From NCBI GenBank assembly GCA_965205605.1, contig CBDBHE010000007.1, forward strand, positions 544,001 to 608,000: a stretch of 64,000 nucleotides of DNA, given 5' to 3'. Below, piece by piece: positions 14,553 to 46,462 of the stretch. This DNA is from Spirochaetota bacterium. GTDB taxonomy: Bacteria > Spirochaetota > UBA12135 > COTS27 > CBDBHE01. The notes under the pieces were generated by a model, which worked only from the letters and a program-made list of their open reading frames with translations, made no database searches and had not been told where the DNA came from. Within the stretch, counting starts at the first letter, position 1, and every line of letters begins with the position of its first letter. The translations under genes and the position numbers were made by a program.

Positions 14553-17500
14553 TTGGTGCAAAAATTTTTTAGTACAAAATCGACTTTATCAAAGTCTTCT
14601 TATCAATATAAAATTGATCCTCGTTTTTTAGCTAGTGATGGGGTTGAAATTTACACAGGGTGCGAATTAATTGTTAAAGGTCTTTTAGAAACAGAAGGGG
14701 GTAGTCATCTTTGGACAGGATATCCAGGATCGCCGGTTTCTGGATTTTTTGATCAATTTAAAAAATTAGGCCCTCTTTTAAAAGAAAAAGGGATTCGCGG
14801 GGCACAAGCAAATAATGAAGCGCTTGCCGCAGCGATGGTTAATGGTTCACAAATGTTGCCTTTAAAAGTGATGGCAGCGATGAAAAGTGTTGGTTTTCAT
14901 GTGGCTTCGGATTCTTTATCACTTGGTAATCTAGCAGGAGCAAACCCTAAAGGAGGAGGGGTTTTGATTTTAGTAGGAGATGATCCTTGGAATCAAAGTA
15001 CCCAAGTGCCAGCTGATTCTCGTTTTATTAGTGAGCATATGCATATGCCTGTTTTAGAGCCTAGTGGCCCACAAGAAATGAAAGATTGGGTCGATTTAGG
15101 GTTTAAGCTTTCTAATGCTTCTCTTTTTTACATCACTTATCTTTTAATGACCCATCAAGCAGATGGAGCTGGAACCGTCAAAATTTTTAAAAATCAATAC
15201 CCTTTCTTTAATATGAATTTCAAATCTAATATCGAAACGCTTACTATTGGAATGAAAGAACCTACAATCATGCTACCACCAATAACAGAGAAAAAAGAAC
15301 AACAGCTTATTTTTAGAAGAGAAGCTCTCCATCAAGCAAGTAGAAAACTTGATATTGATAAAATTCTTTACTCTAGAAAAACTTCAAAAGCTTCTATTGG
15401 ATTTATTACTTCAGGGTGTTCGTTTGTGTATTTAAGGCATGCTTTAATGGAGCTTGATCTTTGGGGAGAGTATCCTGTTTTAAAATTAGGGATTACATAT
15501 CCCATTGACCCTAAAAAGGTACTTGATTTTTTAAGCCAAGTTGAAAATGTAGTGGTCGTTGAGGAAAGAAGAAGTTTTATTGAAAAACAAATTTTAGATA
15601 TTACTAATACCGCTTCCATTATAAAAGCTAAGCAAAAGAAAGAAAGAAAAATACCTCTAATTTATGGGAAAAACTTTCCCAACCAAATGGAAGGATTTCC
15701 ATCTACTTTAGGGCTCAATCCTTCTATGGTTGAAGAAAAAGTAGGTTTGATCATTTCTTTTTTAGGGGATAGAAAGAATTTAAAAAAAATAAAAGAAGAA
15801 ATTTCATTTATTAAAAAAATTCAAAATATTCAAATAGAAACCCCTGTTAGGACGCCTACTTTTTGTCCCGGATGTCCTCATCGAGATAGTTCGAGTAATT
15901 TTAAAAAAATTAAAAAAGACTTTATGAATCCCGTTTATATGAAAAAAAATCATCAAAGAGGAGTGGTTGATCTGATTTTTCACGGAGATACAGGTTGTTA
16001 TTCGATGCTCTCTTTCGAGCCTAATAAAGAACTAATGCACAACTATTCAGGGATGGGTTTAGGAGGAGGGACAGGAGCAGGTATTGATCCTTTTATTATT
16101 AATAAACAAATTGTTTTTATGGGGGATTCTACTTTTTTTCATTCAGGAAGTGTGGCAATTTCAAATGCTCTTAAAAATAATCAAGATATTACTTTTGTTA
16201 TTTTAGATAATGATACAACCGCTATGACAGGACATCAAACCACACCAGGTCTTTCTATAGGGGCATCTAATGAAACCACTCCTTTTCAAAAAATTGATGA
16301 TATTGTTAGGTCAATTGGTAAAAGAGAAAAACATTTTCCCGTCGCTCGTATTAATCCTGAAGATTGGCAATCTTATAGAAAAATAGTAGAAGAAAAAATC
16401 CTTTTAAAGGGTGTGAAAATTATTATTGCGGATAAAGAATGTGCCATTACTTATTATCGAAAAGAACGAATTAAAGAATCTCAAGTTGAAAATAAAAAAG
16501 GATTCTTACCTTCTAAACAATACATGAATGTTGTTGAAGAAACTTGTGAAAATTGCCTTGAATGCACCAATACAACCGGATGTCCTGGCCTTACTGTCAA
16601 ATCAACCCCGTATGGCAATAAGATTCAAACAGATACTTCTTGGTGTGTTAACGATCGAGCTTGTAGCAAAGTTGAAGCTTGTCCTTCTTTCGAATCTATT
16701 ACCGTAAAACGTAAAAAAGAGATTAAAAATCCTCTTGATATGATTGATCTTTATTCACCTTCGAAGCCTAAACAAATTTTTTCTTTTAGTCATTATTGGG
16801 GAGTGCATCTTGCTGGTGTAGGCGGGATGGGGACGGGAGTCCTTTCTGCTATTATTGGAAGAAGTTGCGTCAAAAGAGGCTATCAAGTCCGTTATAGTGA
16901 TAAAAAGGGACTAGCTGTTAGAAATGGAAGTGTGTATTCTAATATTATTGCTTATAAAGAGGGTAGAGAAGAACCTTCTAATGTCATCCCTTACGGGAAA
17001 GCGGATCTTCTAATTGGTATGGATCTTTTAGAAGCAGCAAGGGGGATTAGTTCGTTTCCTTCTCGTGGGGTAGCTTCTAAAGAGAAAACTTCTGCTATTG
17101 TTAATACTTCAAAAACGCCTACTGTTTTAAATTTAATGGGAGAAAATTTTTTTTCTGATGAAAAATTACTACAACAAGTTAAACAACATATTAAAGAAGA
17201 ACATAGTTTTTTCATTGACTTGGGAACCATTTCAGAAAAATATTTTTCAAATAAAATGTATGTTAATTTAATGCTTTTAGGCATTGCTTATCAAAAAGGA
17301 TTGTTACCTGTTTTTGAAGAAGATTTACTTTGGGCCATAAAGGTAGTTGTAGGGCGTCATCAGGAAGAGAAAAATATTATTGCTTTTAAATTGGGGCGTT
17401 ATATTGTTGAAAATATTGCTTTTTTCATCGAAGAAAATCAAGCCAATTTTTCTTATAAAAAATTGCGAGATTACTTTCTCTCTCAAATAGAAAAGCATAA

Positions 17501-18245
17501 AAAAAGACATGTTCGTCGTTTTAAAGATTTACTTTCTTCTTTTGAACATTTGCCTAGATTGGATGATCTTTTAAAGAAAGACATTATTCGAAGAGTCTAT
17601 GACCTTATTTGGCATTCTGGGTTTTTTTATGCTAAAAAATATTTAGGTCTGGTGCTATCTATTTATGAAAAAGATTTAGAAGCAAAAGAAATGCAAATTA
17701 CTAAAGCTGTTATTTGGAATCTCGCTAAAGTCATGCTGATTAAAGATGAACTTTATGTCGCTCATTTACTCACTTCAGAAGAAAAAATCCTTCGTGATAA
17801 AAAGCGTTATCAAATTGACCCTTCAAGAGGAGATAAAATCTATTACAAGCGTTATAATCGTCCTTCTTTTCAAATAGGGCCTTTTAAAATTGCTTTTAAA
17901 GTGAATGCTCAAAATTGGCAACTCAATATTCTTAAAAGAATGCTTTTTTTAAGAAAATTACTACCTACTTGGCATAAAAGAGAAAAACTTTTTAGAGATT
18001 GGTATATTAATTTAACACAAGAATTCCTTTTTAAAACACAAAATGACTATTCAAAATGGCTTGAAATCTTTAATGCCCCAGAACAAGTCACCGGTTATAG
18101 AGAAATCCGTTACCCAAAAGAAGACAAGGTTAAAAGAAGAGTTTATGATCTTTTAATTGACCTTAATAAGAGAAGAGAGTCCAATCCTATTAATTTTTAT
18201 TCTATTTTTAAACAAGAAAAAAATTTAATTAAAACGGGCTCTTAA
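14553..18245 (+). CDS. Fused (alpha+beta) indolepyruvate:ferredoxin oxidoreductase-family protein
   Basis: GYPGSP, NEALAA, MKSVG, RTPTFCPGCPHR, TPP motif GDSTFFHSG..NDTTAMTG, ferredoxin CENCLEC, POR domain AGVGGMG..KKGLAVRNG, and a C-terminal extension. Confidence 0.88.
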   Translation: MVQKFFSTKSTLSKSSYQYKIDPRFLASDGVEIYTGCELIVKGLLETEGGSHLWTGYPGSPVSGFFDQFKKLGPLLKEKGIRGAQANNEALAAAMVNGSQMLPLKVMAAMKSVGFHVASDSLSLGNLAGANPKGGGVLILVGDDPWNQSTQVPADSRFISEHMHMPVLEPSGPQEMKDWVDLGFKLSNASLFYITYLLMTHQADGAGTVKIFKNQYPFFNMNFKSNIETLTIGMKEPTIMLPPITEKKEQQLIFRREALHQASRKLDIDKILYSRKTSKASIGFITSGCSFVYLRHALMELDLWGEYPVLKLGITYPIDPKKVLDFLSQVENVVVVEERRSFIEKQILDITNTASIIKAKQKKERKIPLIYGKNFPNQMEGFPSTLGLNPSMVEEKVGLIISFLGDRKNLKKIKEEISFIKKIQNIQIETPVRTPTFCPGCPHRDSSSNFKKIKKDFMNPVYMKKNHQRGVVDLIFHGDTGCYSMLSFEPNKELMHNYSGMGLGGGTGAGIDPFIINKQIVFMGDSTFFHSGSVAISNALKNNQDITFVILDNDTTAMTGHQTTPGLSIGASNETTPFQKIDDIVRSIGKREKHFPVARINPEDWQSYRKIVEEKILLKGVKIIIADKECAITYYRKERIKESQVENKKGFLPSKQYMNVVEETCENCLECTNTTGCPGLTVKSTPYGNKIQTDTSWCVNDRACSKVEACPSFESITVKRKKEIKNPLDMIDLYSPSKPKQIFSFSHYWGVHLAGVGGMGTGVLSAIIGRSCVKRGYQVRYSDKKGLAVRNGSVYSNIIAYKEGREEPSNVIPYGKADLLIGMDLLEAARGISSFPSRGVASKEKTSAIVNTSKTPTVLNLMGENFFSDEKLLQQVKQHIKEEHSFFIDLGTISEKYFSNKMYVNLMLLGIAYQKGLLPVFEEDLLWAIKVVVGRHQEEKNIIAFKLGRYIVENIAFFIEENQANFSYKKLRDYFLSQIEKHKKRHVRRFKDLLSSFEHLPRLDDLLKKDIIRRVYDLIWHSGFFYAKKYLGLVLSIYEKDLEAKEMQITKAVIWNLAKVMLIKDELYVAHLLTSEEKILRDKKRYQIDPSRGDKIYYKRYNRPSFQIGPFKIAFKVNAQNWQLNILKRMLFLRKLLPTWHKREKLFRDWYINLTQEFLFKTQNDYSKWLEIFNAPEQVTGYREIRYPKEDKVKRRVYDLLIDLNKRRESNPINFYSIFKQEKNLIKTGS

Positions 18246-18259
18246 TCTTCTAAAAATTT

Positions 18260-20086
18260 TTAATCAATTAATTTTCTTTTATTTAAAATAGAAACAATTT
18301 TTGTGATTTCTTTTTTTAAATCTAATTCATTAGCATTAATGACGTGGTCTGATTGTTTTGAAAGCTCAATTTTTATTTCTGCTTCTTTTGGATTTCGACC
18401 TAGGTTGATTAATCTTTGTTTGGCATTTTCAATAGAAACGTCTGAGTGAATTTCTAAAATTGTTTTTTTTTCTAAACAAAGCTTGATGTTTTTTCGATCT
18501 TCTTTTTTATTAAAAGAATAAGTTGAAAAAACAAAACACCCTAAATCAAAAAGAAGTCTCACTTTTTCAACAAAAAGAATCAAGTCTCTTTTACTTGGAT
18601 TTTTTGTAATCGGAAAATCTGATTTGGGTTCTAAAACATACAAAAAACGACCTCTATCAAAGAGATATCTCTCTAAAGCTCTAGCCACCACAATTTTTGC
18701 AGAACCGGCAATACCTGTAAATAAAATCAAAAAAGATTTTTGATGAAATCGATCGGCTCTTTCTAAAGAAGTCACTCTCTCCGAAATGGCTTGAATATCT
18801 TGATCCCCTTGCTTAAAATCACAAATCATCCCGGCCCCTAAGGTTTCATTTGTTAGCCGATCGATAATAATAAAACAACCGGCATATTTGTTTTCTTGGT
18901 ATTTTGAAGCGATGATTGGTAAATCTAAATGAAGGGAAACTTTTCCAATGTCATTGAGTGCTAAATAGGAAGCTTTACTATTTGATAAGTTTTTCATGTT
19001 TTTTTTATAAATCACTTTATCAATGATGCCACTTATGGTTGAATTAGTGTGTTTAATCCAATAAGATTTATTGATTTTTAAAGGTTCTTCGCTCATCCAA
19101 ATAAGATCAGCTTTTAGTGAATAAAGAAGATGAAACGAGTTTTTTTCTTTAACAATGATATCTCCTCTAGAAATATCCACTTCTTCTTTTAAGGTGATCA
19201 CCGTTGACAAAGGAGAAGTGGCTTTTTTCAGTATTTGATCGTAAATCAAAATTTCTTTAACTTGATTTTTTTTCCCAGAAGGCAAAATAACTACTTTGTC
19301 TCCTGTTTTGATTTCTCCTGATAAAATACTCCCCCCATAGCCTCTAAAAGTTTGATCAGGTCTTAAAGTATATTGCACAGGGAAGTAAAATTCTTTTTTG
19401 TCGTTTTTTTCATCACAAGAAACGGTTTCTAAATATTCCAAAATCGTTCCTTTTTTAAACCAAGTCATGATTTGACTTTTACTAACAATATTATCTCCTT
19501 TTAAAGCGCTAATAGGATAAAAATTAACTTCTTCAAAAGAGAGATTTTTACAAAAAGAAACAAATTCTTTTTGGATTTTGTTAAATATATTTTTATCGTA
19601 CTTTATTAAATCCATCTTATTGATCGCAACGACTAGATGGCGAATCTTTAAAAGAGAAGTAATGTAAGCATGTCTTTTTGATTGAGTGGAGACTCCTTTT
19701 AAAGCATCAATTAAAATAATAGCCGTTGTTGCATTTGAAGATCCAGTTGCCATATTTCGAGTGTATTGTAAGTGACCTGGAGTATCGGCAATAATAAATT
19801 TTCTTTTTTCTGTTGTAAAATAACGATAAGCAACATCAATGGTAATGCCTTGCTCTCTTTCAGATTTGAGTCCATCGGTAATGAGTGAAAAATCAATTTC
19901 TTCTTGGAAATTAGCCTTATTTTTAGTGGCTTTTTTAACGGATTCTATTTGGTCTTTATAAACTCCTTTGAGTTCGTAGAGCAAGCGACCGATTAAAGTT
20001 GATTTTCCATCGTCAACAGAACCAATCACAACAAACCTTAAAAGATCTTTCTTTTGGTGATTTTTTAAGTAAGCTTCTATCTTCAC
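18260..20086 (-). CDS. cysN: Sulfate adenylyltransferase large subunit (CysN) with a degenerate C-terminal APS-kinase domain
   Basis: GSVDDGKSTLIGRLL, EREQGITIDVAYRYF, DTPGH, NKMD. The C-terminal domain has GIAGSAKIV where CysC normally has GLSGSGKST. Confidence 0.93.
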   Translation of the reverse strand: MKIEAYLKNHQKKDLLRFVVIGSVDDGKSTLIGRLLYELKGVYKDQIESVKKATKNKANFQEEIDFSLITDGLKSEREQGITIDVAYRYFTTEKRKFIIADTPGHLQYTRNMATGSSNATTAIILIDALKGVSTQSKRHAYITSLLKIRHLVVAINKMDLIKYDKNIFNKIQKEFVSFCKNLSFEEVNFYPISALKGDNIVSKSQIMTWFKKGTILEYLETVSCDEKNDKKEFYFPVQYTLRPDQTFRGYGGSILSGEIKTGDKVVILPSGKKNQVKEILIYDQILKKATSPLSTVITLKEEVDISRGDIIVKEKNSFHLLYSLKADLIWMSEEPLKINKSYWIKHTNSTISGIIDKVIYKKNMKNLSNSKASYLALNDIGKVSLHLDLPIIASKYQENKYAGCFIIIDRLTNETLGAGMICDFKQGDQDIQAISERVTSLERADRFHQKSFLILFTGIAGSAKIVVARALERYLFDRGRFLYVLEPKSDFPITKNPSKRDLILFVEKVRLLFDLGCFVFSTYSFNKKEDRKNIKLCLEKKTILEIHSDVSIENAKQRLINLGRNPKEAEIKIELSKQSDHVINANELDLKKEITKIVSILNKRKLID

Positions 20087-20092
20087 TTTATT

Positions 20093-20989
20093 TTAAAAAT
20101 AGCCTTCTTTTTTTTTGGTTTCCATAGAGCCTTCTACATCATAATCAATCACTCTTCCTTCTCTTTCTGAATTTTCTGAAACAAGCATTTCTTTAATAAT
20201 GTCTTTTACAGTGGTTGCTTTTGAGCGAATGGCACCGGACAAAGGATAACAACCTAAAGTACGAAATCGAATTTCTTCTAAAAAAGGTTTATCTTCTTTT
20301 TTTAAAGGAAAACGCTCATCATCTAACATAATGAGCACTCCTTTTCGATCAATGACTTGTCGTTTTTTGGCAAAGTAAAGCGGGATAATAGGAATTTTTT
20401 CAAGATTAATGTATAACCAAACATCAAGCTCTGTCCAATTTGATAAAGGAAACACTCGAATACTTTCACCTTGATCAATCTTTCCATTATAAAGGTTCCA
20501 AAGTTCAGGTCTTTGTTTTCTTGGATCCCACTGATTTTTTTTATCTCGAAAAGAAAAGATTCTTTCTTTAGCACGTGATTTTTCTTCGTCTCTTCTAGCC
20601 CCTCCAAGAGCAGCATCAAACTTTCCTTTATTTAAAGCTTGCAAGAGACTTTCTGTTTTCATAATGGCTGTGTATTTTTGGCTGCTATAGTTAAAAGGAT
20701 TAATTTTATTTTTAACGCCTTCTTGATTGATATGTACGATTAAATTTAACTTGTCTTTTTTAGCAATTTTATCTCTAAAGCTAATCATTTCTTTAAACTT
20801 CCAAGTGGTATCAACATGTAAAAGAGGAAAAGGAATCTTTGCTGGATAAAAAGCTTTTTTAGCTAAATGTAGCATTACAGACGAGTCTTTACCTATCGAA
20901 TACAGCATAACAGGGTTTTCAAATTCCACAGCGACTTCTCTTAAAATATAAATACTTTCAGCTTCTAATTTTTTTAGATGATTCATCAT
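20093..20989 (-). CDS. cysD: Sulfate adenylyltransferase subunit 2
   Basis: [47 protein letters not shown]. Confidence 0.97.
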
Positions 20990-21033
20990 TTTTTATCGTT
21001 TCTAATCTAATTTTTTTTTAAAATCTTGTGTCT

Positions 21034-21231
21034 CTAAACAAAGAAACATACAAAAAGAAAAAATGAGAAAGAGAAAAAATGGCTAAAACCATTATAAACT
21101 CTAAGAAAGAGCTTTAAAAAGATGATGCTCCCTACTTTGAACCAATTATCCATTTTTACCAAAAAGTACCATTATCATTTAGACATAGGTAGACATCACT
21201 TTAACATTATTTGACTTTTATAAGTGGTAAA
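21034..21231. repeat. Copy A of a ~200 bp direct repeat, upstream of cysD
   Basis: Aligns by eye with 25184-25388; the last 44 bp (GGTAGACATCACTTTAACATTATTTGACTTTTATAAGTGGTAAA) are identical. Confidence 0.9.
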
Positions 21232-21522
21232 ATATCGTTAAAAACGATCCTGATAAATCTAAAATAAAAAATTGTGAAAAAGACATTTTAATAAAGTTAA
21301 ATGAGGGTCAACCACTAAAAAAAAAAAATAATCAATCCCATGGGTTATGAGCTAGTGAAGTAAACTAAAAATCAAACATTCTATCGAATAGGACGAAAAA
21401 ACCATCGAATTTTTCAAAACCTAGATTAAATTTAATGTAAATCCTTTAAGTGATAAGTAGCAACAGCAATACATGTAAAGAGCCAATTTATTTAATGCCA
21501 TCACAAACTTACTGTAATAATT

Positions 21523-22581
21523 TTAATCAAGTATTCCCCCTTTTAAATTAATCAATAAAGGTTTGAAATTTTTATTTTTTAAGATTTCAATAGCTCTGAC
21601 GCTACGCGAAGCAGATTTACAGTAGACTACTAAATCTTTATTTTGGGGTATTTCTGCAATTCTACTTTTAAGCTCATCTAGGGGAATGTGTTGTCCGCCA
21701 ATATTAAATTGTTGCCGTTCACCATTTGTACGCACATCTAGTAAATTATATTTCTTGGGTTGTTTTTTTAGTTCTTCCTTTGTAATTTCTTTATTATTTT
21801 TGTGTAAGGGACAAAAACCCCCATCATTATTATCTAGGGTTTCAATTTTAATATTTTCATTTTTTTCAAAACTGAAAATACATTGTTGCATTGACAAAGC
21901 ATTATAAATTAATAATTTTCCTGATAATACCTTGCCTATCCCACAAATCATTTTGAGTACTTCATTGGCTTGAAGGGTCCCTATGATACCTGGCAATACT
22001 CCAAGCACCCCTATTTGTGAGCAATTGGGCATCTTATTGGGCTTGGGCGGATTTGGATATAAGCATCGGTAAGTTGGGCCATTTTTATAGTTGAATACCG
22101 ATACTTGCCCTTCAAATTTAAATATTGATCCAAATACTAAGGGTTTATTTGTGAGTAGAGCGGCATCATTTACTAAGTAACGTGTTGGGAAATTATCACT
22201 TCCATCTACAATGATATCGTAGTTATTAAATAATTCGATAGCATTTTTAGGAGTTAATTTTTGTGTATAAACTTGAAAATTGACAAACGGGTTTAAGGCG
22301 ACTAATCTTTGAGTGGCAATTTTAACTTTAAATTGACCAATATCACTTTGTGTATACAAAACTTGACGTTGTAAATTACTTTGATTTATTTTATCATCAT
22401 CGATCATACCAATGGTGCCAACACCTGCTGCAACGATATATTGCAATATTGGGCATCCCAATCCTCCTGCCCCAATAACCAAAACTTTGGCTCCTTTTAG
22501 TTTTTTTTGACCAAGCTCGCCAATTTCATCTAAAATAAGATGACGGTTATATTGTTTTTTTTCCTCGGGTGATAGCTTCAT
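21523..22581 (-). CDS. thiF: ThiF/MoeB adenylyltransferase fused to a rhodanese domain (MoeZ-type)
   Basis: YNRHLIL, GAGGLG, SNLQRQ, DGSDNF, YRCLYP..NCSQIGVLG, C-terminal rhodanese DVRT..VVYCKSASRS. Start moved to the ATG at 22581 just after the thiH stop. Confidence 0.85.
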   Translation of the reverse strand: MKLSPEEKKQYNRHLILDEIGELGQKKLKGAKVLVIGAGGLGCPILQYIVAAGVGTIGMIDDDKINQSNLQRQVLYTQSDIGQFKVKIATQRLVALNPFVNFQVYTQKLTPKNAIELFNNYDIIVDGSDNFPTRYLVNDAALLTNKPLVFGSIFKFEGQVSVFNYKNGPTYRCLYPNPPKPNKMPNCSQIGVLGVLPGIIGTLQANEVLKMICGIGKVLSGKLLIYNALSMQQCIFSFEKNENIKIETLDNNDGGFCPLHKNNKEITKEELKKQPKKYNLLDVRTNGERQQFNIGGQHIPLDELKSRIAEIPQNKDLVVYCKSASRSVRAIEILKNKNFKPLLINLKGGILD

Positions 22582-22582
22582 C

Positions 22583-23695
22583 TTATTGCCAATTATTCTC
22601 CCAATCTTTCCAAACAACTTCTAGTCCTTTGTCTTTTAGCATTTCCAAAACCTCTTCTGTGCTGCGTTCATCAGATACCTCAAATTGTTCTAATGATTTT
22701 AGTTCTACTTGATAGCCACCAGGGTTTGTTTTAGATCCTGCACTCATTGAGGTAATGCCTAAATTAACGATGTTATTTCGAAATACTTCACTTTCTCGTG
22801 TAGAGATAGATAATTCTACATCTTCATCTAATAATCTAAATGCACATATTAATTGCACCAAATCAGAATCTGTCATGTCTATTTTTGGTTCTAATTCACC
22901 CCAGTGGGGTCGTAACCTTGGAAATGAAATGGAGTATTTCGTTTTCCAATAAGTCTTTTGTAAGTACTTTAAGTGTAAAGCTGTAAAAAAACTATCCGCC
23001 TTCCAATCTTCTAAACCTAATAAAACCCCTAATCCTATTTTATGCACACCTGCTTTGCCTAATCTATCGGGAGTATCTAAACGATAATCAAAATTAGATT
23101 TCTTACCTTTGGGGTGATGTTTTTTATATTCTTCCCTATGATAAGTTTCTTGGTATACCAATACAGCGTACAAACCATTGTTTATTAATTGCTCATATTC
23201 GCCTTGATTTAGAGGTTGTACTTCTATAGTGATGTTAGAAAAATACGAACGAATCAGTTTTAATGCGTTATTAATGTAATTAACACCCACTGTTTTGTTT
23301 GCTTCACCTGTTACTAATAAAATATGGTCATACCCTTTTGATTTAAGATACTTGATTTCTTTTAAAATTTCGGCATTAGTTAAGGTTTTGCGTGAGATTT
23401 GATTGGTTAAACTAAATCCACAATAAGTACATATATTTTGACACTCATTACTTAAATACATTGGGGAATACATTTGCATCGTATTTCCAAAACGTTTTTT
23501 TGTTAAGTGCTTGCTCAACTGTGCCATCTGTTCTAAATAAGGTTTAGCTACCGGCGATACAAATGCCTTAAAATCCTCTAAATCGCGTTTGGACTTTGCA
23601 AGTGCTTTTAAAACATCATTTTCCGTTTTGTTAAAAATACTTTCTAGAACGAGGCCCCAATCATAAGTATCAAATATCTCTTTAAATGAACCCAT
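22583..23695 (-). CDS. thiH: 2-iminoacetate synthase (radical SAM)
   Basis: PMYLSNECQNICTYCGF, YQETY, SISFPRLRP, SAGSKTNPGGY, EQFEVSDER, VWKDW. Confidence 0.95.
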   Translation of the reverse strand: MGSFKEIFDTYDWGLVLESIFNKTENDVLKALAKSKRDLEDFKAFVSPVAKPYLEQMAQLSKHLTKKRFGNTMQMYSPMYLSNECQNICTYCGFSLTNQISRKTLTNAEILKEIKYLKSKGYDHILLVTGEANKTVGVNYINNALKLIRSYFSNITIEVQPLNQGEYEQLINNGLYAVLVYQETYHREEYKKHHPKGKKSNFDYRLDTPDRLGKAGVHKIGLGVLLGLEDWKADSFFTALHLKYLQKTYWKTKYSISFPRLRPHWGELEPKIDMTDSDLVQLICAFRLLDEDVELSISTRESEVFRNNIVNLGITSMSAGSKTNPGGYQVELKSLEQFEVSDERSTEEVLEMLKDKGLEVVWKDWENNWQ

Positions 23696-23697
23696 CT

Positions 23698-24468
23698 TTA
23701 ATCGTTCAAAAAACTTGTTAATGGACTACTTGCCTCAGCATCTTGTTTTATGGGTGCTAATTTTGCCTTATAGGCTATTCTACCTGCTACAACTGCCATT
23801 TTAAATGCTTTTGCCATTTCGATTGGTTGCTTAGACACCGCTATAGCGGTGTTAACTAAAACAGCATCGGCTCCTAACTCCATCGCATGTGCCGCATGAG
23901 ATGGGCTGCCTATTCCTGCGTCTACAATAACGGGTACATTACTTTGATCTATTATTATCTCTAGAAACTCCAATGTTTTTAATCCTTTATTGCTTCCAAT
24001 TGGGGCTCCCAAAGGCATCACGCACGGTGTCCCTATTTCTTCTAGTCGTTTGCATAACACAGGATCTGCATGAATATATGGCATTACTACAAACCCTAAT
24101 TTTACTAATTCTTCAGTAGCTTTTAAAGTTTCTATCGGATCTGGAAGCAAATATTTAGGATCTGGGTGTATTTCTAATTTTATCCAGTTAGTCTCTAAAG
24201 CTTCTCTAGATAATTGTGCTGCAAAAATGGCTTCCTTTGCATTGCGAACTCCTGACGTATTGGGTAATAAATTAATTTTTGGGTGATTTAAATGTGCCAA
24301 AAAATCGTCTTTTTTATCTTGAAGTTCAACACGTTTAAGTGCCACGGTAATGAGTTCACTTTCGGAGGTCAATAGTGCTTTTTTCATTAATTTACATGAG
24401 CTAAATTTCCCTGTTCCTGTAAATAATCTTGAATTAAACTCTTTCTCTGCTATTTTTAATGTATCCAT
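23698..24468 (-). CDS. thiG: Thiazole synthase
   Basis: [43 protein letters not shown]. Confidence 0.97.
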
Positions 24469-24472
24469 TTTT

Positions 24473-25111
24473 TTAATGGTTTACTAAAAACGATCTATCT
24501 TTAGATTGTTCTATTATTTTTTTTATTTCAACAGTTGATCTATTTGATATTAATCCAGAAACAGCTATTCCAAAAATACCAGACTTGTATAGATCTTTAA
24601 AATCAGCTGTAGTAATTCCACCTACTCCATAAATAGGTAGTTGACATCCTTTATTTTTTATTGTTGAAATAATTTTTTTGTAACCATTAATTCCTAGCAT
24701 CGGACTTAAATTTTTTTTTGTGTTAGTAAATCTAAGCGGTCCCAAACCAATATAATCCACTCCTTGATTTATTAAGGAGACACAATCTTCTAGTGTATTT
24801 GCTGTCCCTCCAATGATAGATTCGTTTAATATTATCTTTTTAGCTTCTAGGATACTCATATCATTTTTTCCTAAATGGACTCCATCTGCTTTTACAGCTT
24901 TGGTTACTTTAGCGTTGTCATTGATAATTAACTTTGCTCCAAAATTCCTGCATATCTTTTTTGCTTCTTTTGCAATAGAGATGTAGGTTTTTTCGGGACT
25001 TTTTTTCACTCTTAATTGCACCAATTTACAGCCTGCTTCACAAACTTTTTGAATATTTTTTAAATGTTCCTCCGGGTTTTTCCCCTGTGATATGTAGTAT
25101 AATTTATCCAT
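24473..25111 (-). CDS. thiE: Thiamine-phosphate synthase
   Basis: [36 protein letters not shown]. Confidence 0.92.
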
Positions 25112-25178
25112 GATGGCCCAATAAATTTTTATTTGAAGACAAAATCTTTTCTGTATATTTTTTCCTTCTGTGACATGC
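25104..25178 (-). pseudogene. thiD: C-terminal stub of ThiD (HMP/HMP-P kinase)
   Basis: Translates [24 protein letters not shown], resembling the remembered flavobacterial ThiD end (AC..AK.YTEK.L.SN..LLG.H). Its stop overlaps the thiE ATG, as expected for thiD-thiE coupling. Confidence 0.6.
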
Positions 25179-25183
25179 TGACC

Positions 25184-25388
25184 CTAGATAAAGAAGCATA
25201 CAAAAAAAAACAAAAGAGAAGGGAAAAAAAGGCTAAAACCAATACAAACTCTAAAAGAAAGCTTTAAAAAAAATAGTATTCTCTATTTTGAGCGTTGAAC
25301 GCAATGTATATTTACCAAAAGTTACTACTATCATTTAAATATAGGGTAGACATCACTTTAACATTATTTGACTTTTATAAGTGGTAAA
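25184..25388. repeat. Copy B of the ~200 bp direct repeat, between divergent thiE and thiS
   Basis: Similar to 21034-21231; perfect 44 bp match at 25345-25388. Confidence 0.9.
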
Positions 25389-25397
25389 GTGTACAAT
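25368..25397 (+). promoter_or_regulatory. Putative sigma70 promoter for thiS
   Basis: TTGACT-18 bp-TACAAT ending 37 bp before the thiS ATG; its -35 lies within the duplicated core. Confidence 0.5.
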
Positions 25398-25434
25398 TCG
25401 TTCAAAGTAGGGAGTTAGTTCTAATATTAAATTT

Positions 25435-25638
25435 ATGACACTAGTAACTGTAAACAATATAGCACATCAATTTTCAAAAATAGTCACATTGAAAGAAATC
25501 CTTGAGCAATTAAAAGTTTCTCAAAGCGGAATCGCTGTAGCCATAAATAAAAACATCATTTCGAAAACAGCATGGGCAAACACCCAAGTGAATAACAAAG
25601 ATGATATTTTGATTATAAAAGCAACTCAAGGGGGATAA
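25435..25638 (+). CDS. thiS: Sulfur carrier protein ThiS
   Basis: 67 aa, GIAVAIN..II.K..W, ends ILIIKATQGG with the C-terminal GG. Confidence 0.95.
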   Translation: MTLVTVNNIAHQFSKIVTLKEILEQLKVSQSGIAVAINKNIISKTAWANTQVNNKDDILIIKATQGG

Positions 25639-25703
25639 TCAATGATGGTATTTAAAAATTAGTGAAGTCTAAATGACTTTAAAGCAAAACGCTAATAGCT
25701 ATT

Positions 25704-25981
25704 ATGAAGAAAAAAGCCATTCGAAGATCAATTTAATTTAGGTTTAGATTCACAGCTGGTTTGGGAATACTACGATAAAACTTTACTAGCAGCGGGAGCT
25801 AAAAGAGTATCCTTTGGTTCTATGCGTGGATCCAAAATTCTGCTTCATGAAAAGATCTCAAAAAATAAGTGATTTTGCCATAAAAAATGACATCGTGGAT
25901 CTTAAAGTTGTCGTCAAAGGGAGGAAAGGTAAAATTCAAAAAATTAAAGAAAAAGAAAGCAAAATTGATCTACAAGCTTAA
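25704..25981 (+). pseudogene. thiC: thiC relic: a few start codons joined to a decayed C-terminus
   Basis: MKKKA, then out of frame FEDQFNLGLDSQLVWEYYDKTLLAAGAKRVSFGSMRGSK / FCFMKRSQKISDFA..NDIVD..KEKESKIDL. Compare ThiC WEDQFNLGLDP..A.EYHDETLP..GAK.AHFCSMCGPKFCSMKISQ. Two Fe-S cysteines are lost. Confidence 0.88.
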
Positions 25982-26032
25982 TGCCAAGGTACTTAATTCG
26001 TTTAAGAGTTTTAGTATTAAAACAAACAAACG

Positions 26033-26626
26033 ATGCTAATAGTTCTTACATCAGAGCAAGAAATAGAAAATGAAGCCATCCTTATTGATCAATTATTTAA
26101 CAATGGATTGCAATCACTTCATTTGCGTAAGCCTAATTTTAATAGTCATCATTATTTAAAATTATTAAACCAAATTAACCCTAAGTATTATAGCCAAATT
26201 ATGATTCATCAACGCCTCGATTTATGTTTCAAATTTAAGCTAAAAGGAATTCATCTACAAGAACAAACACGATTAAATTTAGGAGAAAAATTAAAAACTT
26301 ACGTGAATGAATATCAAAGTAAAAATTATACGGTGAGTAGCTCTTTTCATGAATTACAAGCTTTAGAAAGGTGTCCCGTTAATTTTGATTATCACTTACT
26401 AAGCCCGGTGTTTTCATCCATCTCTAAACAAGGTTACAAGTCAAGAAAATTTGATGTTAATCATATCCCTAAAAATATTATAGGTATCGGAGGGATAACA
26501 GCTGAGACTATCAAAGAAACAGTTTCTTTAGGGTACCAAGGAGTAGGAATTTTAGGAGCAATTTGGAACACAAAAAATCCTATTGAAAGCTTCAAAAAGA
26601 TTTATTTAAAATATAGCGAGAGTTGA
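26033..26626 (+). CDS. TenI/ThiE-like protein (thiamine phosphate synthase family, Bacteroidetes type)
   Basis: LHLRKP, GIHL.E, SSSFH, Y.LLSPVFSSISKQGY, IGIGGI; position directly after thiC. Confidence 0.85.
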   Translation: MLIVLTSEQEIENEAILIDQLFNNGLQSLHLRKPNFNSHHYLKLLNQINPKYYSQIMIHQRLDLCFKFKLKGIHLQEQTRLNLGEKLKTYVNEYQSKNYTVSSSFHELQALERCPVNFDYHLLSPVFSSISKQGYKSRKFDVNHIPKNIIGIGGITAETIKETVSLGYQGVGILGAIWNTKNPIESFKKIYLKYSES

Positions 26627-26793
26627 AAAATAATTTAATGTAAAAATCAGTATTGTTGAAAATTAAAACCTTCTTAATAATTTATTTGATAGGCTGTTTT
26701 ATGCATTAAAAACTCTCAGCAAGCTACCAAAACATTATTTAAGCTTTACTTTAGAAGTGTCTTGTTTTTTTTTGATGCAATTCGTTTTGGCAT

Positions 26794-27420
26794 TTATGCA
26801 TTTAGATGGAGCCCGCATTCTCTTTTTTCTAGTACTTTTGTTGGATCATAATAATTAGTTTCATTTTCAAGATGATTTTTTTTTAAAAATATACCCATCT
26901 CTTTTTTTGTATAATAAAAAAAAGGATTGATTTTAATCATTCCATTTCTTTCAGCTACTAAAATGTTTAAAGTTTCTCTAAAAGGAGTTTGTTCTTTTCT
27001 AAGGGAAGTAAGCCATAAAGTAGGCTTAAAAGTGTCAAGGGCTCTGTTAAAAGGTTCGAGTTTGACTTCTTTGGTAAAGTTTTTGTGTTGTTGTTCGTTT
27101 TCTAAAGAAGGGATTCCTCCTAAAGCAGCTTCTCTATAAGCACGTGTAATTTTAGGTGTAAAAATAGCCACGTTGAGTTTCATTGTTTCCGTGGTTTTCT
27201 TTGCAAACTGATAGGTTTCTTTTGTATTGTAGCCATGGTCGATCCAAATAACAGGGATTTCTTTTCTTACACTTGTTGCTAAATAAAGTAAGCATGCTTC
27301 ATAAGGTCCAAAATGGGTGCTAAGAATACTTTTTTTACTTTCTTTTAAATGGAAAGTCCACTTGATAATTTCTTCAGCTGTTTTATTTTTTAAGTTTTTA
27401 TTTTCAATAGATAGCTTCAA
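26794..27420 (-). CDS. cysH: (P)APS reductase, short form without Fe-S cysteines
   Basis: PVIWIDHGY, VKLEPFNRAL, RKEQT.FR, KINPF, C-terminal RECGLH; TTG start with AAGGAG RBS. Confidence 0.88.
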   Translation of the reverse strand: MKLSIENKNLKNKTAEEIIKWTFHLKESKKSILSTHFGPYEACLLYLATSVRKEIPVIWIDHGYNTKETYQFAKKTTETMKLNVAIFTPKITRAYREAALGGIPSLENEQQHKNFTKEVKLEPFNRALDTFKPTLWLTSLRKEQTPFRETLNILVAERNGMIKINPFFYYTKKEMGIFLKKNHLENETNYYDPTKVLEKRECGLHLNA

Positions 27421-27436
27421 TGATTTTCTCCTTTTT

Positions 27437-28183
27437 TTAAATGGTTTTACAAATAAGACATTGATTATTTTTTTTTATTTTAATTTTTTTAAAATTCATC
27501 TCTAACGTATTGATCATAAATAAAGTATTGGTTAAAGGCTGAGCGCAATGGGTCAAATATTTAATAGTTTCAGTTGCTTGAATGCTCCCGATAATGCCGA
27601 CAACAGGTCCAAGTACCCCTTGAGTGTTACAAGAAAGCATTTCTTTTTTAAACGGCAACTTTGGAAATACACATCGATAACAAGCTGTTTTTCCTGGAAT
27701 AATGGTCATGATTTGCCCATCAAAACCAAGGACACTAGCTAAAGAAAATGGTTTGTTGTTTTTAACACAAGTTTGATTAAGTAAATCTTTTGTTTTAAAA
27801 TTATCACTGCCATCTACAATGAAATCGTAATGATGAATGATTTTATGGGCATTCTTTTCATTAAGATTATCATCAATGATGTTGATTTTACAAAGAGGAT
27901 TAAGAGCTTTTAATTTTTTTTGAGCCAAAAAAATTTTTTTTTCTCCTATGTCTTTGCTCTGATAGAGAATCTGTCGTTGTAGATTAGAGAGCTCAATTTT
28001 GTCTTTGTCAATTAGTCCCAGAGTTCCAATGCCACTTGCTGCTAAATATAAAGAAGTGATCGATCCTAATCCACCGACTCCTATGATTAGCACTTTGGCC
28101 TTAAAAAGTTTTTGCATTCCTATTTTACCAATGTTTTTTAAAGTTAAATGTTTTTCAAAGCGATTTTTAAAATTTGGATTCAT
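27437..28183 (-). CDS. HesA/MoeB/ThiF-family adenylyltransferase without rhodanese
   Basis: GVGGLG, LSNLQRQ, DGSDNF, CYRCVFP, SC..QGVLG, terminal CLIC zinc site. Start taken at the ATG at 28183. Confidence 0.88.
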   Translation of the reverse strand: MNPNFKNRFEKHLTLKNIGKIGMQKLFKAKVLIIGVGGLGSITSLYLAASGIGTLGLIDKDKIELSNLQRQILYQSKDIGEKKIFLAQKKLKALNPLCKINIIDDNLNEKNAHKIIHHYDFIVDGSDNFKTKDLLNQTCVKNNKPFSLASVLGFDGQIMTIIPGKTACYRCVFPKLPFKKEMLSCNTQGVLGPVVGIIGSIQATETIKYLTHCAQPLTNTLFMINTLEMNFKKIKIKKNNQCLICKTI

Positions 28184-28208
28184 TTTTGTTTTTTTTATAA
28201 AAAAAAAT

Positions 28209-28664
28209 TTAAATATAATAAACATTCTCTTTTGATTTGAGAGACATTGCTTTAAAAGATTGATGAAGCTCTTCCAAGGTTTTACTTTCTAAGAATTCTT
28301 TTAATGGTTTATTGGCTTCATTTAAAAAATGAGCGATGACTTTAGTGGCATTTTTTGATTCTATTTTACTGTTGTTTTTTTCTTTAATAAAAGCCCAATC
28401 AATAGGGCCATCGATGAGCTCGATCATTTCTTTTAAAGAAATTTCTTTTGCATTTTTTTTAAGGAAATAACCCCCATTAGGTCCTTTTTTACTATCGATA
28501 TAGCCTGCTTTTTTAAGATCGAGTAAAATATTTTGTAAAAATTTCATGGGAATGTTTTGTTTGATAACTGTTTTTTTAATTTGAATAGGGTTTTGTTTAT
28601 TTTCATTAGAATAAAAATCTAATAAACACTTAATGGCATAGTAACATTTTTGAGAAAGTTTCAT
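28209..28664 (-). CDS. Rrf2-family regulator (CymR-like, heads the cys cluster)
   Basis: MKLSQK..YA, QNIP.KFLQNILLDLKKAG.I.SKKGPNGGYFL, IDGP; lacks the IscR three-Cys Fe-S motif. Confidence 0.9.
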   Translation of the reverse strand: MKLSQKCYYAIKCLLDFYSNENKQNPIQIKKTVIKQNIPMKFLQNILLDLKKAGYIDSKKGPNGGYFLKKNAKEISLKEMIELIDGPIDWAFIKEKNNSKIESKNATKVIAHFLNEANKPLKEFLESKTLEELHQSFKAMSLKSKENVYYI

Positions 28665-28748
28665 TTTATAGTCAATATTTTCTACTTGTATTGTAGATTT
28701 ATTTATTTATTTTTACAATGATATTTTTTTATGAGACAAAGATAGGTT

Positions 28749-28776
28749 TTGAATTTTTAAAAAGAAATATTATAAT
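28749..28776 (+). promoter_or_regulatory. Putative sigma70 promoter of the tRNA cluster
   Basis: TTGAAT-16 bp-TATAAT, 19 bp before tRNA-Arg. Confidence 0.6.
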
Positions 28777-28795
28777 GGCACTTTAAAGCAAAAAA

Positions 28796-28869
28796 GCGCC
28801 AATAGCTCAGCTGGATAGAGCAACTGCCTTCTAAGCAGTAGGTCGGAGGTTCGAATCCCCCTTGGCGTG
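28796..28869 (+). tRNA. tRNA-Arg(UCU)
   Basis: GCGCCAA/TTGGCGT acceptor, ACTGC-CTTCTAA-GCAGT anticodon arm, GTTCGAAT; no CCA. Confidence 0.95.
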
Positions 28870-28923
28870 ATTTTTTTTATTTAATTTTAATAATAGATAA
28901 AAAAATAATTTATAAAAGAAGAT

Positions 28924-28996
28924 GGCGAGTGTAGTTCAGTGGTAGAGCGCCAGATTGTGGTTCTGGTTGTCGTGGGTTCGAATCCCATCACTCGCC
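28924..28996 (+). tRNA. tRNA-His(GUG)
   Basis: G-1 plus GCGAGTG/CACTCGC-C acceptor, CCAGA-TTGTGGT-TCTGG anticodon arm; no CCA. Confidence 0.95.
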
Positions 28997-29011
28997 TTTT
29001 AATTTTTTTTA

Positions 29012-29085
29012 GCGGCTGTAGCTCAGTCGGATAGAGCATCTGACTTCGGATCAGAGGGTCGTGGGTTCGAATCCTTCCAGCCGCG
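29012..29085 (+). tRNA. tRNA-Arg(UCG)
   Basis: GCGGCTG/CAGCCGC acceptor, TCTGA-CTTCGGA-TCAGA anticodon arm; no CCA. Confidence 0.95.
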
Positions 29086-29244: not shown

Positions 29245-29785
29245 TTGAGAATTATTGGAAACCACACGGTATTTCAAGCGTGTTTGTTATTCTTTCCCCA
29301 ACATTGCTCTTTTAAGGGTCTAGTTGCTTTTGGTAATGAAATGGCTCTTCTTCCTGTAGCCAAGCCTTTGCATGCCACTTATTTCTACAATTTCGTTCAA
29401 AGGCTCCTATTTGTTTCCATTAAAAATGCTCTGAGTTCGCATCCAAACTTAGTCGAGTGGCACCATTACTTGCAAGCTACTTTGGAAGCAATCTTTTTCG
29501 TGGCTTAAAAAGCCAAAATTTATTGTAAAATTTTTAGTAAAACAAAACAAAGTTTCTGCTAATCAGTTTCACAATACCTTTTTCACAAAAATTCGATATA
29601 TTCATGATACTAAATTTTCGAGTTACATCAGCAAGCACTACAATTCTCTTAAAAAATCGCAACTTTTAGATTTAAAAAAACAATACAATATTCGCTATTA
29701 TGTTGTGCATAAAAGTCGTCCTCCACTGTCTTTAAAGCTTGTTTTCATTTGGAAAAAAGAATATTACAACGTTTATCAATTGTAA
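29245..29785 (+). pseudogene. Fragmented gene, C-terminus of a DUF6798-like membrane protein
   Basis: Pieces in different frames: ..QRLLFVSIKN..NLVEWHHYL.. and ..LLDLKKQYNIRYYVV..KKEYYNVYQL*, separated by stops and frameshifts. Confidence 0.4.
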
Positions 29786-33522: not shown

Positions 33523-33562
33523 ATTTATTTAGGCAGGCTTTTGTCGTTAAAAATGATAAATC

Positions 33563-34265
33563 TTAAGAAAGATAAGTCTGAAAAGAAACCGTTTTACATT
33601 GTTTTTGAATTAGCTTTTTTGCTTTTTCAAGACTTTCCATCTTATCTTGAAAGAAACGATATGAGATAGTTAAAGTGTTTTCTTTTTCAATTAGATTTTC
33701 TACTTTGCCACTCAGGTTTGATTTTAAAAGGTGGATGATATCGATTAAATTGTTATTTCCTTTATCTTTGAAATAAATCACAAAAAGACCATTTTCTTGA
33801 TTTTTTTTAATAAAAAATTGTAAAAAAGTATTTTTATTAACAAAGAGTAAACCAAGGATTGTGATCAAGAGAGTGACTAAAAGCAGCTTATGGTTGGCTG
33901 TAGCACAGATAAGAGAAGTGGCAATAATGAGCATTAAAAAGCCAATTTCTTCAGGCTCTTTAATGGGGGTCCTAAAGCGGACAATGGAAAGAGCCCCTAA
34001 AAGCCCTAAAGACAGAGGTAAGGAATGCTGTAAAGTAATAAAAATACTGGTGATACTAATGGGATAATAAAGGAAAGGCATGATGGAGTTGGCTGCCTGT
34101 TGCACGACTTTTATAAAATTTCAGATACAGTTTGCTAATTAAAAGAGAGACTAGAAAAGAGGTGAGAATTAAGAAAAAATAGACGCTTATGGATTCTCCT
34201 TTTGTAAAAATTTTTAGCACATAATAAAGTGCTTTTTTAATTTTTATGACTAAATCCATATACAT
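33563..34265 (-). pseudogene. DUF4956-family membrane protein split by a +1 frameshift
   Basis: ..RATGSQLHHAFPLLS / ISITSIF..SLPLSLGLLGALSIVRFRTPIKEPEEIGF. One extra C in TCC-C-ATT (plus-strand GGG at 34061-34063). Confidence 0.8.
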
Positions 34266-34284
34266 TAGAGTGGGTATCCTTTTT

Positions 34285-44471: not shown

Positions 44472-46462
<1,991 letters not shown>

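What the first reader, a model, noticed from the sequence alone, without database searches (positions are those of the whole stretch)
18260..28697. Candidate hybrid sulfate-to-thiazole module: a trimmed, rearranged thiamine island nested in an Rrf2-headed sulfate-assimilation cluster
Seen: the co-oriented rrf2-moeB-cysH and cysD-cysN blocks are separated by about 5.6 kb of thi genes arranged as two divergent units (thiE-G-H-F leftward; thiS-thiC relic-tenI rightward). Established: the flavobacterial order is thiS-C-tenI-D-E-G-H-F in one operon, normally under a TPP riboswitch, and ThiS/ThiF/ThiG/ThiH form the sulfur-consuming thiazole branch. Here only the sulfur-using and coupling genes are intact, no TPP riboswitch is visible, and the DNA upstream of both thi units is a copy of the cysD upstream region. 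Inference: horizontally acquired thiazole genes were rewired from thiamine feedback to sulfur-regulon control.
Basis: partly seen in the sequence, partly recalled or inferred. Interest (0 to 1): 0.75.

Follow-up and report, generated by a model that had tools for sequence, protein, structure and literature searches.

The report
Borrowed vitamin B1 genes, partly decayed
A spirochaete-related bacterium picked up a vitamin B1 gene set from marine flavobacteria, which landed inside its sulfate-uptake genes, lost two genes and its vitamin-sensing switch, and probably still makes half of the vitamin; control by sulfur is possible but not shown.

Summary
The layout is real. A Flavobacteriaceae thi operon (ThiH 82-88% to its best hits) sits between cysH and cysD of a host whose GroEL groups with uncultured Spirochaetota. 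thiC is reduced to a deleted, frameshifted relic. thiD scraps lie on both sides of the break, so one inversion plus deletions explains the two divergent units. The TPP riboswitch found before thiS in 77 of 77 donor loci is gone, replaced by a ~235-bp segment about 80% identical to DNA upstream of cysD, with a 44-bp perfect core. A second, diverged assembly probably links the same CysD and ThiH, which argues against misassembly. The six intact genes show donor-like pN/pS; the relic does not. The 'rewired to sulfur control' step is unsupported. The same thiC+thiD trimming occurs in 8 of 80 flavobacterial loci that keep the riboswitch. No motif is shared between the repeat and the rrf2 upstream DNA above background, and the direction of copying is unknown. 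The cluster also stops at sulfite, whereas thiazole sulfur normally comes from cysteine. Best reading: a fixed inter-phylum transfer giving a thiazole-making, pyrimidine-salvaging genotype under a borrowed local promoter. The conserved core keeps co-regulation open (about 0.12).

The parts
18260..20086 (-). cysN fused to a degenerate APS-kinase (CysC) domain; host-like codon usage
   Evidence: TIGR02034 533.7 bits over cut-off 336.1; kinase part 51.6 vs cut-off 163, P-loop reads GIAGSAK; codon test
20093..20989 (-). cysD, ATP sulfurylase small subunit
   Evidence: TIGR02039 498.9 over cut-off 396.6; one sister protein at 96%, named hits at 70-72% from Planctomycetota, Gammaproteobacteria and a Deltaproteobacterium
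21029..21231 (.). Repeat copy R1, about 40 bp upstream of cysD; keeps the cysD-facing 33-bp arm (21128-21161) and a TTTAAA-16-TATAAT promoter-like site; the thiS-type rightward site is damaged by a short deletion
   Evidence: promoter function is inference
21188..21231 (.). 44-bp core identical in both repeat copies; includes a TTGACT hexamer and an imperfect dyad
   Evidence: simulated P(run>=44) 6e-5 to 1.5e-3 given 124 of 167 identity outside the core
21232..21522 (.). 290-bp spacer of unknown origin between R1 and the thiF stop
   Evidence: no significant match to donors; the decayed-thiS idea was not supported
21523..22581 (-). thiF, E1-like adenylyltransferase with C-terminal rhodanese domain (flavobacterial)
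   Evidence: PF00899 + PF00581; 56-69% to 51 donor ThiF; rhodanese loop CKSASRS where the common donor loops have G at the fourth place
22583..23695 (-). thiH, radical-SAM 2-iminoacetate synthase, CX3CX2C intact
   Evidence: TIGR02351 541.7 over cut-off 380; 82-88% to top hits, named ones Flavobacteriaceae; nested among Flavobacteriaceae
23698..24468 (-). thiG, thiazole synthase
   Evidence: PF05690 E 1.5e-108; median 83% to 79 donor ThiG
24473..25111 (-). thiE, thiamine-phosphate synthase
   Evidence: TIGR00693 154.4 over cut-off 145.1
25112..25178 (-). 3' end relic of thiD (about residues 230-250), still attached to thiE as in donors
   Evidence: 76% over 21 aa to the L001 protein between tenI and thiE, E 3.6e-10; best E 2.5e-11; DNA match 77% over 64 bp. 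The name ThiD is by position and recall
25179..25414 (.). Repeat copy R2, standing where the donor promoter and TPP riboswitch were; keeps the thiS-facing arm and TTGACT-18-TACAAT; the thiE-facing -10 has decayed to TGTATT
   Evidence: no significant match in 80 donor loci or phages
25435..25638 (+). thiS sulfur carrier, C-terminal GG intact
   Evidence: TIGR01683 56.4 over cut-off 37.45; 0 of 14 invariant donor columns changed
25705..25981 (+). thiC pseudogene: first few codons fused by a ~1.6-kb deletion to the C-terminal ~85 codons, with a frameshift and loss of the Fe-S cysteines
   Evidence: relic pieces match residues 537-617 of the 619-aa donor protein; start resembles donor starts; pN/pS 0.29 vs 0.10 among donors. 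The name ThiC is by position and recall; Pfam did not detect the relic
26033..26626 (+). tenI-like / ThiE paralogue of the flavobacterial operon
   Evidence: PF02581; below the TenI and ThiE cut-offs; median 49%, max 62% to 77 donors
26640..26702 (+). probable internal thiD relic (about residues 77-97), on the strand opposite the 3' relic
   Evidence: 57% over 21 aa, E 8e-5, same position in 4 donor ThiD shown; weak by DNA profile, E 2.2
26794..27420 (-). cysH-family (P)APS reductase, short form ending ECGLH, no Fe-S cysteine cluster
   Evidence: PF01507; below all NCBIfam cut-offs
27437..28183 (-). MoeB/ThiF-family E1 without rhodanese; not a copy of the imported thiF
   Evidence: 42% to the window's ThiF, 39-44% to 51 donor ThiF; host-like codons
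28209..28664 (-). Rrf2-family regulator without an Fe-S cysteine triad, ending in YYI (CymR-like traits)
   Evidence: TIGR00738 94.3 over cut-off 73.3; CymR 62.5 vs 195 and IscR 70.3 vs 207.55; Cys only at 7 and 13

Best explanation
A marine Flavobacteriaceae thi operon (thiS-C-tenI-D-E-G-H-F under a TPP riboswitch) was transferred to an ancestor of this Spirochaetota-related lineage and inserted between cysH and cysD of an older, host-ameliorated sulfate-activation cluster. The thiS-thiC-tenI-thiD' part was then inverted with a break inside thiD, and deletions removed most of thiC and thiD, the donor promoter and the riboswitch. A ~200-bp local segment was duplicated so that one copy leads cysD (cut off from the rrf2 promoter by the insertion) and the other leads thiS. 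The kept genes make thiazole phosphate from DXP, tyrosine and ThiS-thiocarboxylate (sulfur from cysteine via a host desulfurase and the ThiF rhodanese domain). ThiE couples it to a salvaged pyrimidine that a kinase elsewhere in the genome must phosphorylate. Expression is no longer TPP-sensing and is probably constitutive from the borrowed promoter. Shown: donor, host, relics, riboswitch loss, repeat. Inferred: order of events, promoter use, salvage, constitutive expression. The nesting in the cys cluster is most likely an accident of insertion.
For: Donor: all 80 loci kept from 405 GTDB hits are Flavobacteriales. ThiH nests with Algibacter, Maribacter and Flavivirga (SH-aLRT 91, quick tree). 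Host GroEL falls in a 99-supported clade of 17 rows, two of them named Spirochaetota. Codon test: 6 of 6 thi genes score foreign; 20 of 20 others, including the 5 untrained cys-cluster genes, score host-like. The thiD relics on opposite strands flank the break. TPP aptamer before thiS in 77 of 77 donors, none here. Intact genes have pN/pS close to donor-donor values (e.g. thiH 0.17 vs 0.15, thiG 0.15 vs 0.14), the relic 0.29 vs 0.10. thiC+thiD loss with the same five genes kept occurs in 8 of 80 donor loci. thiE+thiG without thiC is a described pyrimidine-auxotroph genotype (PMC10881298, passage). Each repeat copy keeps only the promoter-like site facing its nearer gene. Sister proteins P0002 (ThiH, 88%) and P0242 (CysD, 96%) both come from an ENA contig of 23,043 bp.
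Against: The 44-bp core is more conserved than chance, which suggests a shared functional site or gene conversion and is not explained by this reading. No promoter-like site of 9/12 or better faces thiE within R2, so how thiE-G-H-F is transcribed is unclear, and the promoter scan overall is at chance level (55 sites vs 48.8 +/- 6.5). ThiH has 13 of 231 near-invariant sites changed against a donor median of 1, so the island may be decaying. No thiD-like kinase or vitamer transporter was seen in the window. No empty-site relative was seen, so the ancestral cysH-cysD adjacency is inferred.
Confidence: 0.62

Rival explanations
1. Sulfur-regulon rewiring: the repeat carries the operator of the cluster's CymR-like Rrf2, so cysDN, thiS-tenI and thiE-G-H-F are co-regulated by cysteine status. 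In the strongest form the imported ThiS also serves the orphan cluster E1 as a sulfur carrier.
For: Riboswitch lost. The core is perfectly conserved in both copies and overlaps the -35 of the thiS promoter-like site, with an imperfect dyad in R1. Rrf2 ends in Ile, like CysK-binding partners (PMC4961446, passage). The cluster E1 lacks rhodanese, as in sulfur-assimilation operons that normally carry their own ThiS/MoaD-like protein (PMC1779556, passage), and no such carrier is left beside it. The linkage probably persists in a diverged sister.
Against: No shared motif with rrf2 upstream DNA above the null at k=17, 21 or 25. The same trimming occurs under riboswitch control in Maribacter. No sulfite reductase, JAB or SirA gene in the cluster or among the 45 window ORFs scanned. 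The APS-kinase domain is degenerate. The imported ThiF is intact, so ThiS needs no second E1. A CymR-type repressor would raise sulfur-consuming thiazole synthesis when sulfur is scarce (inference).
Confidence: 0.15
2. A decaying passenger: the operon was useful after transfer but is now under relaxed selection, and thiE-G-H-F has lost its promoter.
For: Heavy deletion of thiC and thiD. Long ThiH branch after transfer (stem 0.18 plus tips 0.13 and 0.16). 13 changed invariant sites in each of the window's and the sister's ThiH, only 4 at shared sites. ThiH differs by 12% between the sisters while CysD differs by 4%. thiE pN/pS 0.50 vs 0.39. The thiE-facing -10 has decayed.
Against: Six full-length open frames with catalytic motifs intact beside a frameshifted thiC. 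pN/pS near donor values, although synonymous sites are close to saturation so the test is blunt. TPP-dependent enzymes are encoded nearby.
Confidence: 0.2
3. Assembly artefact or chimera: flavobacterial reads joined to the host through the repeat.
For: Direct repeats flank thiE-G-H-F. The window's own GroEL was not listed by the protein search although its ThiH and CysD were.
Against: The copies are only ~80% identical, too diverged to cause a collapse. thiS-thiC'-tenI lies outside the repeats. The pseudogenes and split thiD are unlike any donor. A diverged sister ThiH (SH-aLRT 99) and a 96% CysD share a contig length in another assembly, and that ThiH's tail reads into the thiF start.
Confidence: 0.03

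Closest known systems
Flavobacteriaceae thiamine operon thiS-thiC-tenI-like-thiD-thiE-thiG-thiH-thiF with TPP riboswitch (RF00059)
   Same: All six intact genes and both relics derive from it; adjacencies S-C-tenI-D and D-E-G-H-F are kept.
   Different: Host from another phylum; split into divergent units; thiC and thiD destroyed; riboswitch replaced by non-donor DNA.
Maribacter thiS-tenI-thiE-thiG-thiH operons (L004-L008, L010-L012)
   Same: Same loss of thiC and thiD from the operon.
   Different: They stay co-oriented, keep the TPP aptamer, and have no thiF or cys genes within the fetched flanks.
Sulfur-assimilation operons with E1-like, ThiS/MoaD-like and JAB proteins (row 4e of PMC1779556; Wolinella protein-thiocarboxylate pathway, seen only as a reference title in PMC5764234)
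   Same: Rhodanese-less E1 beside PAPS reductase, ATP sulfurylase and an APS-kinase domain.
   Different: No native carrier, JAB, SirA, sulfite reductase, transporter or O-acetylhomoserine sulfhydrylase in this cluster; a foreign thiazole operon sits inside it.
Pyrimidine (HMP) auxotrophs of marine bacterioplankton (PMC10881298)
   Same: thiE and thiG kept, thiC lost, as far as the window shows.
   Different: Here the genotype arose from a transferred operon; transporter and kinase not located.
CymR of Bacillus subtilis (Rrf2 family, CysK partner)
   Same: Rrf2 fold, no Fe-S cysteines, C-terminal isoleucine, heads cysteine-related genes.
   Different: Far below the CymR model cut-off (62.5 vs 195); operator and regulon unknown.

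Membership tests
Flavobacteriaceae thi operon | Genes orthologous to flavobacterial thi genes | tested here: met
Flavobacteriaceae thi operon | One co-oriented unit S-C-tenI-D-E-G-H(-F) | tested here: not met
   Two divergent units against 64 of 80 donors with this order
Flavobacteriaceae thi operon | TPP aptamer upstream of thiS | tested here: not met
   77 of 77 donors have it; absent here
Flavobacteriaceae thi operon | Intact thiC and thiD | tested here: not met
   Relics only
E1/ThiS/JAB sulfur-assimilation operon (PMC1779556 row 4e) | E1-like protein without rhodanese beside PAPS reductase and ATP sulfurylase | tested here: met
E1/ThiS/JAB sulfur-assimilation operon (PMC1779556 row 4e) | Own ThiS/MoaD-like carrier, JAB, SirA and sulfite reductase in the neighbourhood | tested here: not met
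   None in the cluster; the only carrier is the imported ThiS; the only JAB among 45 ORFs scanned is RadC 20 kb away
E1/ThiS/JAB sulfur-assimilation operon (PMC1779556 row 4e) | Those genes elsewhere in the genome | not testable with these tools
   Host genome not among the 80 GTDB loci returned
CymR-type Rrf2 regulator | Rrf2 family, no Fe-S cysteine triad, C-terminal Ile | tested here: met
   that these traits mark CymR is partly recalled
CymR-type Rrf2 regulator | Score above the CymR equivalog cut-off | tested here: not met
   62.5 vs 195
Rrf2 sulfur regulon (for the thi genes) | Operator shared between rrf2 upstream DNA and the repeat | tested here: inconclusive
   No match above null, but the true operator is unknown and autoregulation was assumed
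Rrf2 sulfur regulon (for the thi genes) | Binding and sulfur-dependent expression | not testable with these tools
   needs EMSA and RNA-seq
Pyrimidine-auxotroph B1 genotype | thiE and thiG present, thiC absent | tested here: inconclusive
   True in the window; the rest of the genome was not seen
Composite transposon or MITE | Transposase, terminal inverted repeats, target duplication, dispersed copies | tested here: inconclusive
   33-bp internal inverted arms; fold z -1.6 and -2.2; no transposase ORF in the interval; only two exact copies of the arm motif in 64 kb; target duplication not tested

The most novel reading that the evidence does not exclude
A reduced E1-type sulfur-assimilation cluster that had lost its own sulfur carrier captured a foreign thiazole operon, discarded the TPP riboswitch, and put the imported thiS and thiE-G-H-F under the operator of its CymR-like Rrf2 (the 44-bp core). 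Vitamin B1 thiazole synthesis would then be gated by cysteine status rather than by thiamine, with ThiS shared between two E1 enzymes.
Probability: 0.12. Interest if true: 0.7.

Novelty: new variant of a known kind. Interest (0 to 1): 0.36.

Why it matters
It is a well-preserved record of how a transferred operon is domesticated across phyla. The riboswitch is lost, a local promoter region is duplicated in its place, the pyrimidine branch is deleted in the same way as in Maribacter, and the break points can still be read. It predicts an uncultured spirochaete relative that makes thiazole but needs an outside pyrimidine vitamer, which is a cultivation clue. If the conserved core proved to be the Rrf2 operator, it would be a rare case of thiamine genes answering to sulfur status. 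Searches listed no paper on such an arrangement, but only listings were read and the library lacks most subscription journals.

Tried and rejected
Degenerate TPP aptamer in the repeat: GTAGGGA resembles the aptamer 3' end, but Rfam at E<=10 and a donor-built DNA profile gave no hit there. Repeat derived from donors: no significant match in 80 loci; none in plasmids for R1 or phages for R2. Spacer 21232-21522 as a decayed second thiS/thiC copy, which would favour a tandem inversion duplication: two 9-mers lie on one diagonal, but 57 of 674 control windows scored as high, 45 to 320 of 382 did under five alignment settings, and the ThiS profile gave E 0.5; not supported. Cluster moeB as a duplicate of thiF: rejected. 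Rrf2 operator in the repeat: no signal above null. Plasmid searches with CysH, Rrf2, CysD and MoeB gave only distant hits; none was opened, so they say nothing on synteny. The gapped arm motif search found 0 because the spacing was set too long. The careful ThiH tree did not finish; the quick tree on 38 of 80 loci plus 17 database proteins and the window protein is used, and no clade-rejection test was run. No complex or structure prediction was run, since ThiS-E1 pairs would pass by likeness to solved structures. In searches 31 and 58 the term ThiS matches the word 'this' and adds nothing.

Full report
Observation. The ORF map and family scans confirm the described anatomy. rrf2, a rhodanese-less MoeB-like E1 and cysH run on the minus strand. 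Then come thiS, a thiC relic and a tenI-like gene on the plus strand, thiE-thiG-thiH-thiF on the minus strand, and cysD-cysN(C). The gap between cysH and cysD is 5.8 kb. Rfam finds only four tRNAs in the window and no TPP match at E<=10 over 20900-28800. A direct repeat joins 21034-21231 and 25184-25388 at 80% over 206 columns, with 44 identical bases.

Donor and host. The named top hits of ThiH are Flavobacteriaceae at 80-84%, and the best hit is an unnamed protein at 88%. The GTDB scan found 405 relatives and kept 80, all Flavobacteriales; the host itself was not among them. In a quick tree of 56 rows (38 of the 80 loci, 17 database proteins and the window protein) ThiH sits in a 91-supported group with Algibacter, Maribacter and Flavivirga. 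GroEL is 76-78% identical to its best hits and falls in a 99-supported clade of 17 rows, two named Spirochaetota, next to Spirochaetes bacterium GWF1_41_5 (29 of 120 hits used). The host assignment rests on this one gene. In a leave-one-out codon test all 6 thi genes score foreign and all 20 other genes score host-like, including the 5 cys-cluster genes that were not used in training. None of the 80 donor loci has cysD, cysH, rrf2 or a close cysN within the fetched flanks. The cys genes may be an older import: the named CysD hits are Planctomycetota and Proteobacteria at 70-72%, and the cluster abuts three tRNA genes.

Not an artefact. One ThiH (P0002, 88%, sister at SH-aLRT 99) and one CysD (P0242, 96%) both come from an ENA contig of 23,043 bp. 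I infer they share a contig; its DNA was not seen. The 12-residue tail of P0002 matches the frame that runs on from the window's thiH stop into the thiF start, so thiH-thiF adjacency holds there too. The island therefore predates the split of two diverged genomes.

How the layout arose. Donors have S-C-tenI-D-E-G-H-F in 48 of 80 loci and S-C-tenI-D-E-G-H in 16 more, all co-oriented. In the window the last ~21 codons of thiD remain in front of thiE on the minus strand (E to 2.5e-11). A probable internal piece follows tenI on the plus strand (E 8e-5, but only E 2.2 by DNA profile). thiC keeps its first few codons fused to the C-terminal ~85 codons, with a frameshift. The names thiC and thiD for the donor ORFs rest on position and recall. 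The simplest history is insertion, one inversion breaking in thiD, and several deletions. A tandem inversion duplication would give the same map, but I found no significant trace of extra copies.

Regulation. A TPP aptamer lies 38-180 nt before thiS in 77 of 77 donor loci with a thiS hit (Rfam-confirmed in 7 of 7). In the window, 25179-25414 takes its place, and this DNA has no significant match in donors. The repeat has two 33-bp inverted arms. R1 keeps the arm and the TTTAAA-16-TATAAT site facing cysD. R2 keeps the arm and the TTGACT-18-TACAAT site facing thiS. Each copy has damaged the other site. This looks like one divergent promoter region duplicated and divided between two genes, but consensus hits in this A+T-rich DNA are at chance level overall, so it is a hint only. 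No such site faces thiE. The perfect core is unlikely by chance (P 6e-5 to 1.5e-3) and stays unexplained. It does not resemble the rrf2 upstream DNA more than 62 control windows do. Which copy is the original cannot be told, because no empty-site relative was available.

Function. The six intact genes keep their motifs and show pN/pS near donor-donor values, while the thiC relic is about three times higher; synonymous sites are near saturation, so this test is blunt. Against full constraint, ThiH has 13 of 231 near-invariant sites changed (donor median 1, maximum 9), the sister has 13 too, and only 4 sites are shared. In E. coli the thiazole is made from tyrosine, cysteine and DXP, with IscS supplying sulfur to ThiS (PMC8300815, passage). 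ThiD is needed to make HMP-PP (PMC3020362, passages). The local cys genes reach sulfite at most, with a degenerate APS-kinase domain and no sulfite reductase among the ORFs scanned (45 ORFs in Pfam, 16 in NCBIfam, a few housekeeping genes named by recall only). So no direct sulfate-to-thiazole route is encoded here. The trimming has a plain parallel: 8 Maribacter loci carry S-tenI-E-G-H without thiC or thiD and keep the riboswitch (those genes could lie elsewhere in their genomes). thiE+thiG without thiC is the described pyrimidine-auxotroph genotype (PMC10881298, passages).

Known systems. The E1 beside cysH, cysD and cysN is itself known: such operons combine a rhodanese-less E1 with a ThiS/MoaD-like carrier, JAB, SirA and sulfite reductase (PMC1779556, passages). 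The Wolinella thiocarboxylate paper was seen only as a reference title (PMC5764234, passages). The cluster here is a reduced form with no native carrier. The Rrf2 has no Fe-S cysteines and ends in Ile, as CysK partners such as CymR usually do (PMC4961446, passage), but it fails the CymR cut-off. No supplements were read. Searches were seen as listings, and none listed a paper on thi genes nested in a cys cluster or on this lineage's transfer.

Verdict. Real, inter-phylum and forensically clear, but a variant of known processes: operon transfer, riboswitch loss, thiC/thiD loss. Best explanation 0.62; decaying passenger 0.20; sulfur-regulon rewiring 0.15 (0.12 in its full form); artefact 0.03. 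Interest 0.36. Unchecked: the rest of the host genome, the sister contig's DNA, cluster membership of the window proteins, and the metagenome and viral collections.

Noticed in passing
window 28796-29085: Three tRNA genes (Arg-TCT, His-GTG, Arg-TCG) start 130 bp upstream of rrf2 on the other strand; a plausible integration site for the cys cluster itself.
   Followed up: partly
window 29245-29508: An 87-aa ORF of higher G+C (39%) after the tRNAs has no Pfam or NCBIfam family and no plasmid DNA match; possibly a gene relic.
   Followed up: partly
window 14553-18245 and 51321-53557: Two TPP-dependent indolepyruvate oxidoreductase systems, one a fused 1230-aa form converging on cysN; these show a local demand for thiamine.
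   Followed up: no
window 31774-34969: CotH kinase, DUF4956 and VTC-domain trio; DUF4956 and VTC each seem split over two ORFs (34056-34265, 34730-34969), suggesting frameshifts.
   Followed up: no
window 18260-18800: The APS-kinase domain fused to CysN has a broken P-loop and scores far below its cut-off.
   Followed up: partly
window 29853-30953, 46662-47711, 61-1782, 5652-7106: Long ORFs with no Pfam family; the first two begin with signal-peptide-like stretches.
   Followed up: no
L004-L008, L010-L013: Maribacter thi operons lack thiC and thiD (8 loci) or only thiD (L013) while keeping the TPP aptamer.
   Followed up: partly
L001:434-535, L009:434-534: A second TPP aptamer about 4 kb upstream of the thi operon.
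   Followed up: no
P0002: The sister ThiH has lost its stop and runs 12 residues into the thiF start in another frame.
   Followed up: yes
window 44804-46462: The window's own GroEL was not listed by the protein search although its ThiH and CysD were; reason unknown.
   Followed up: no
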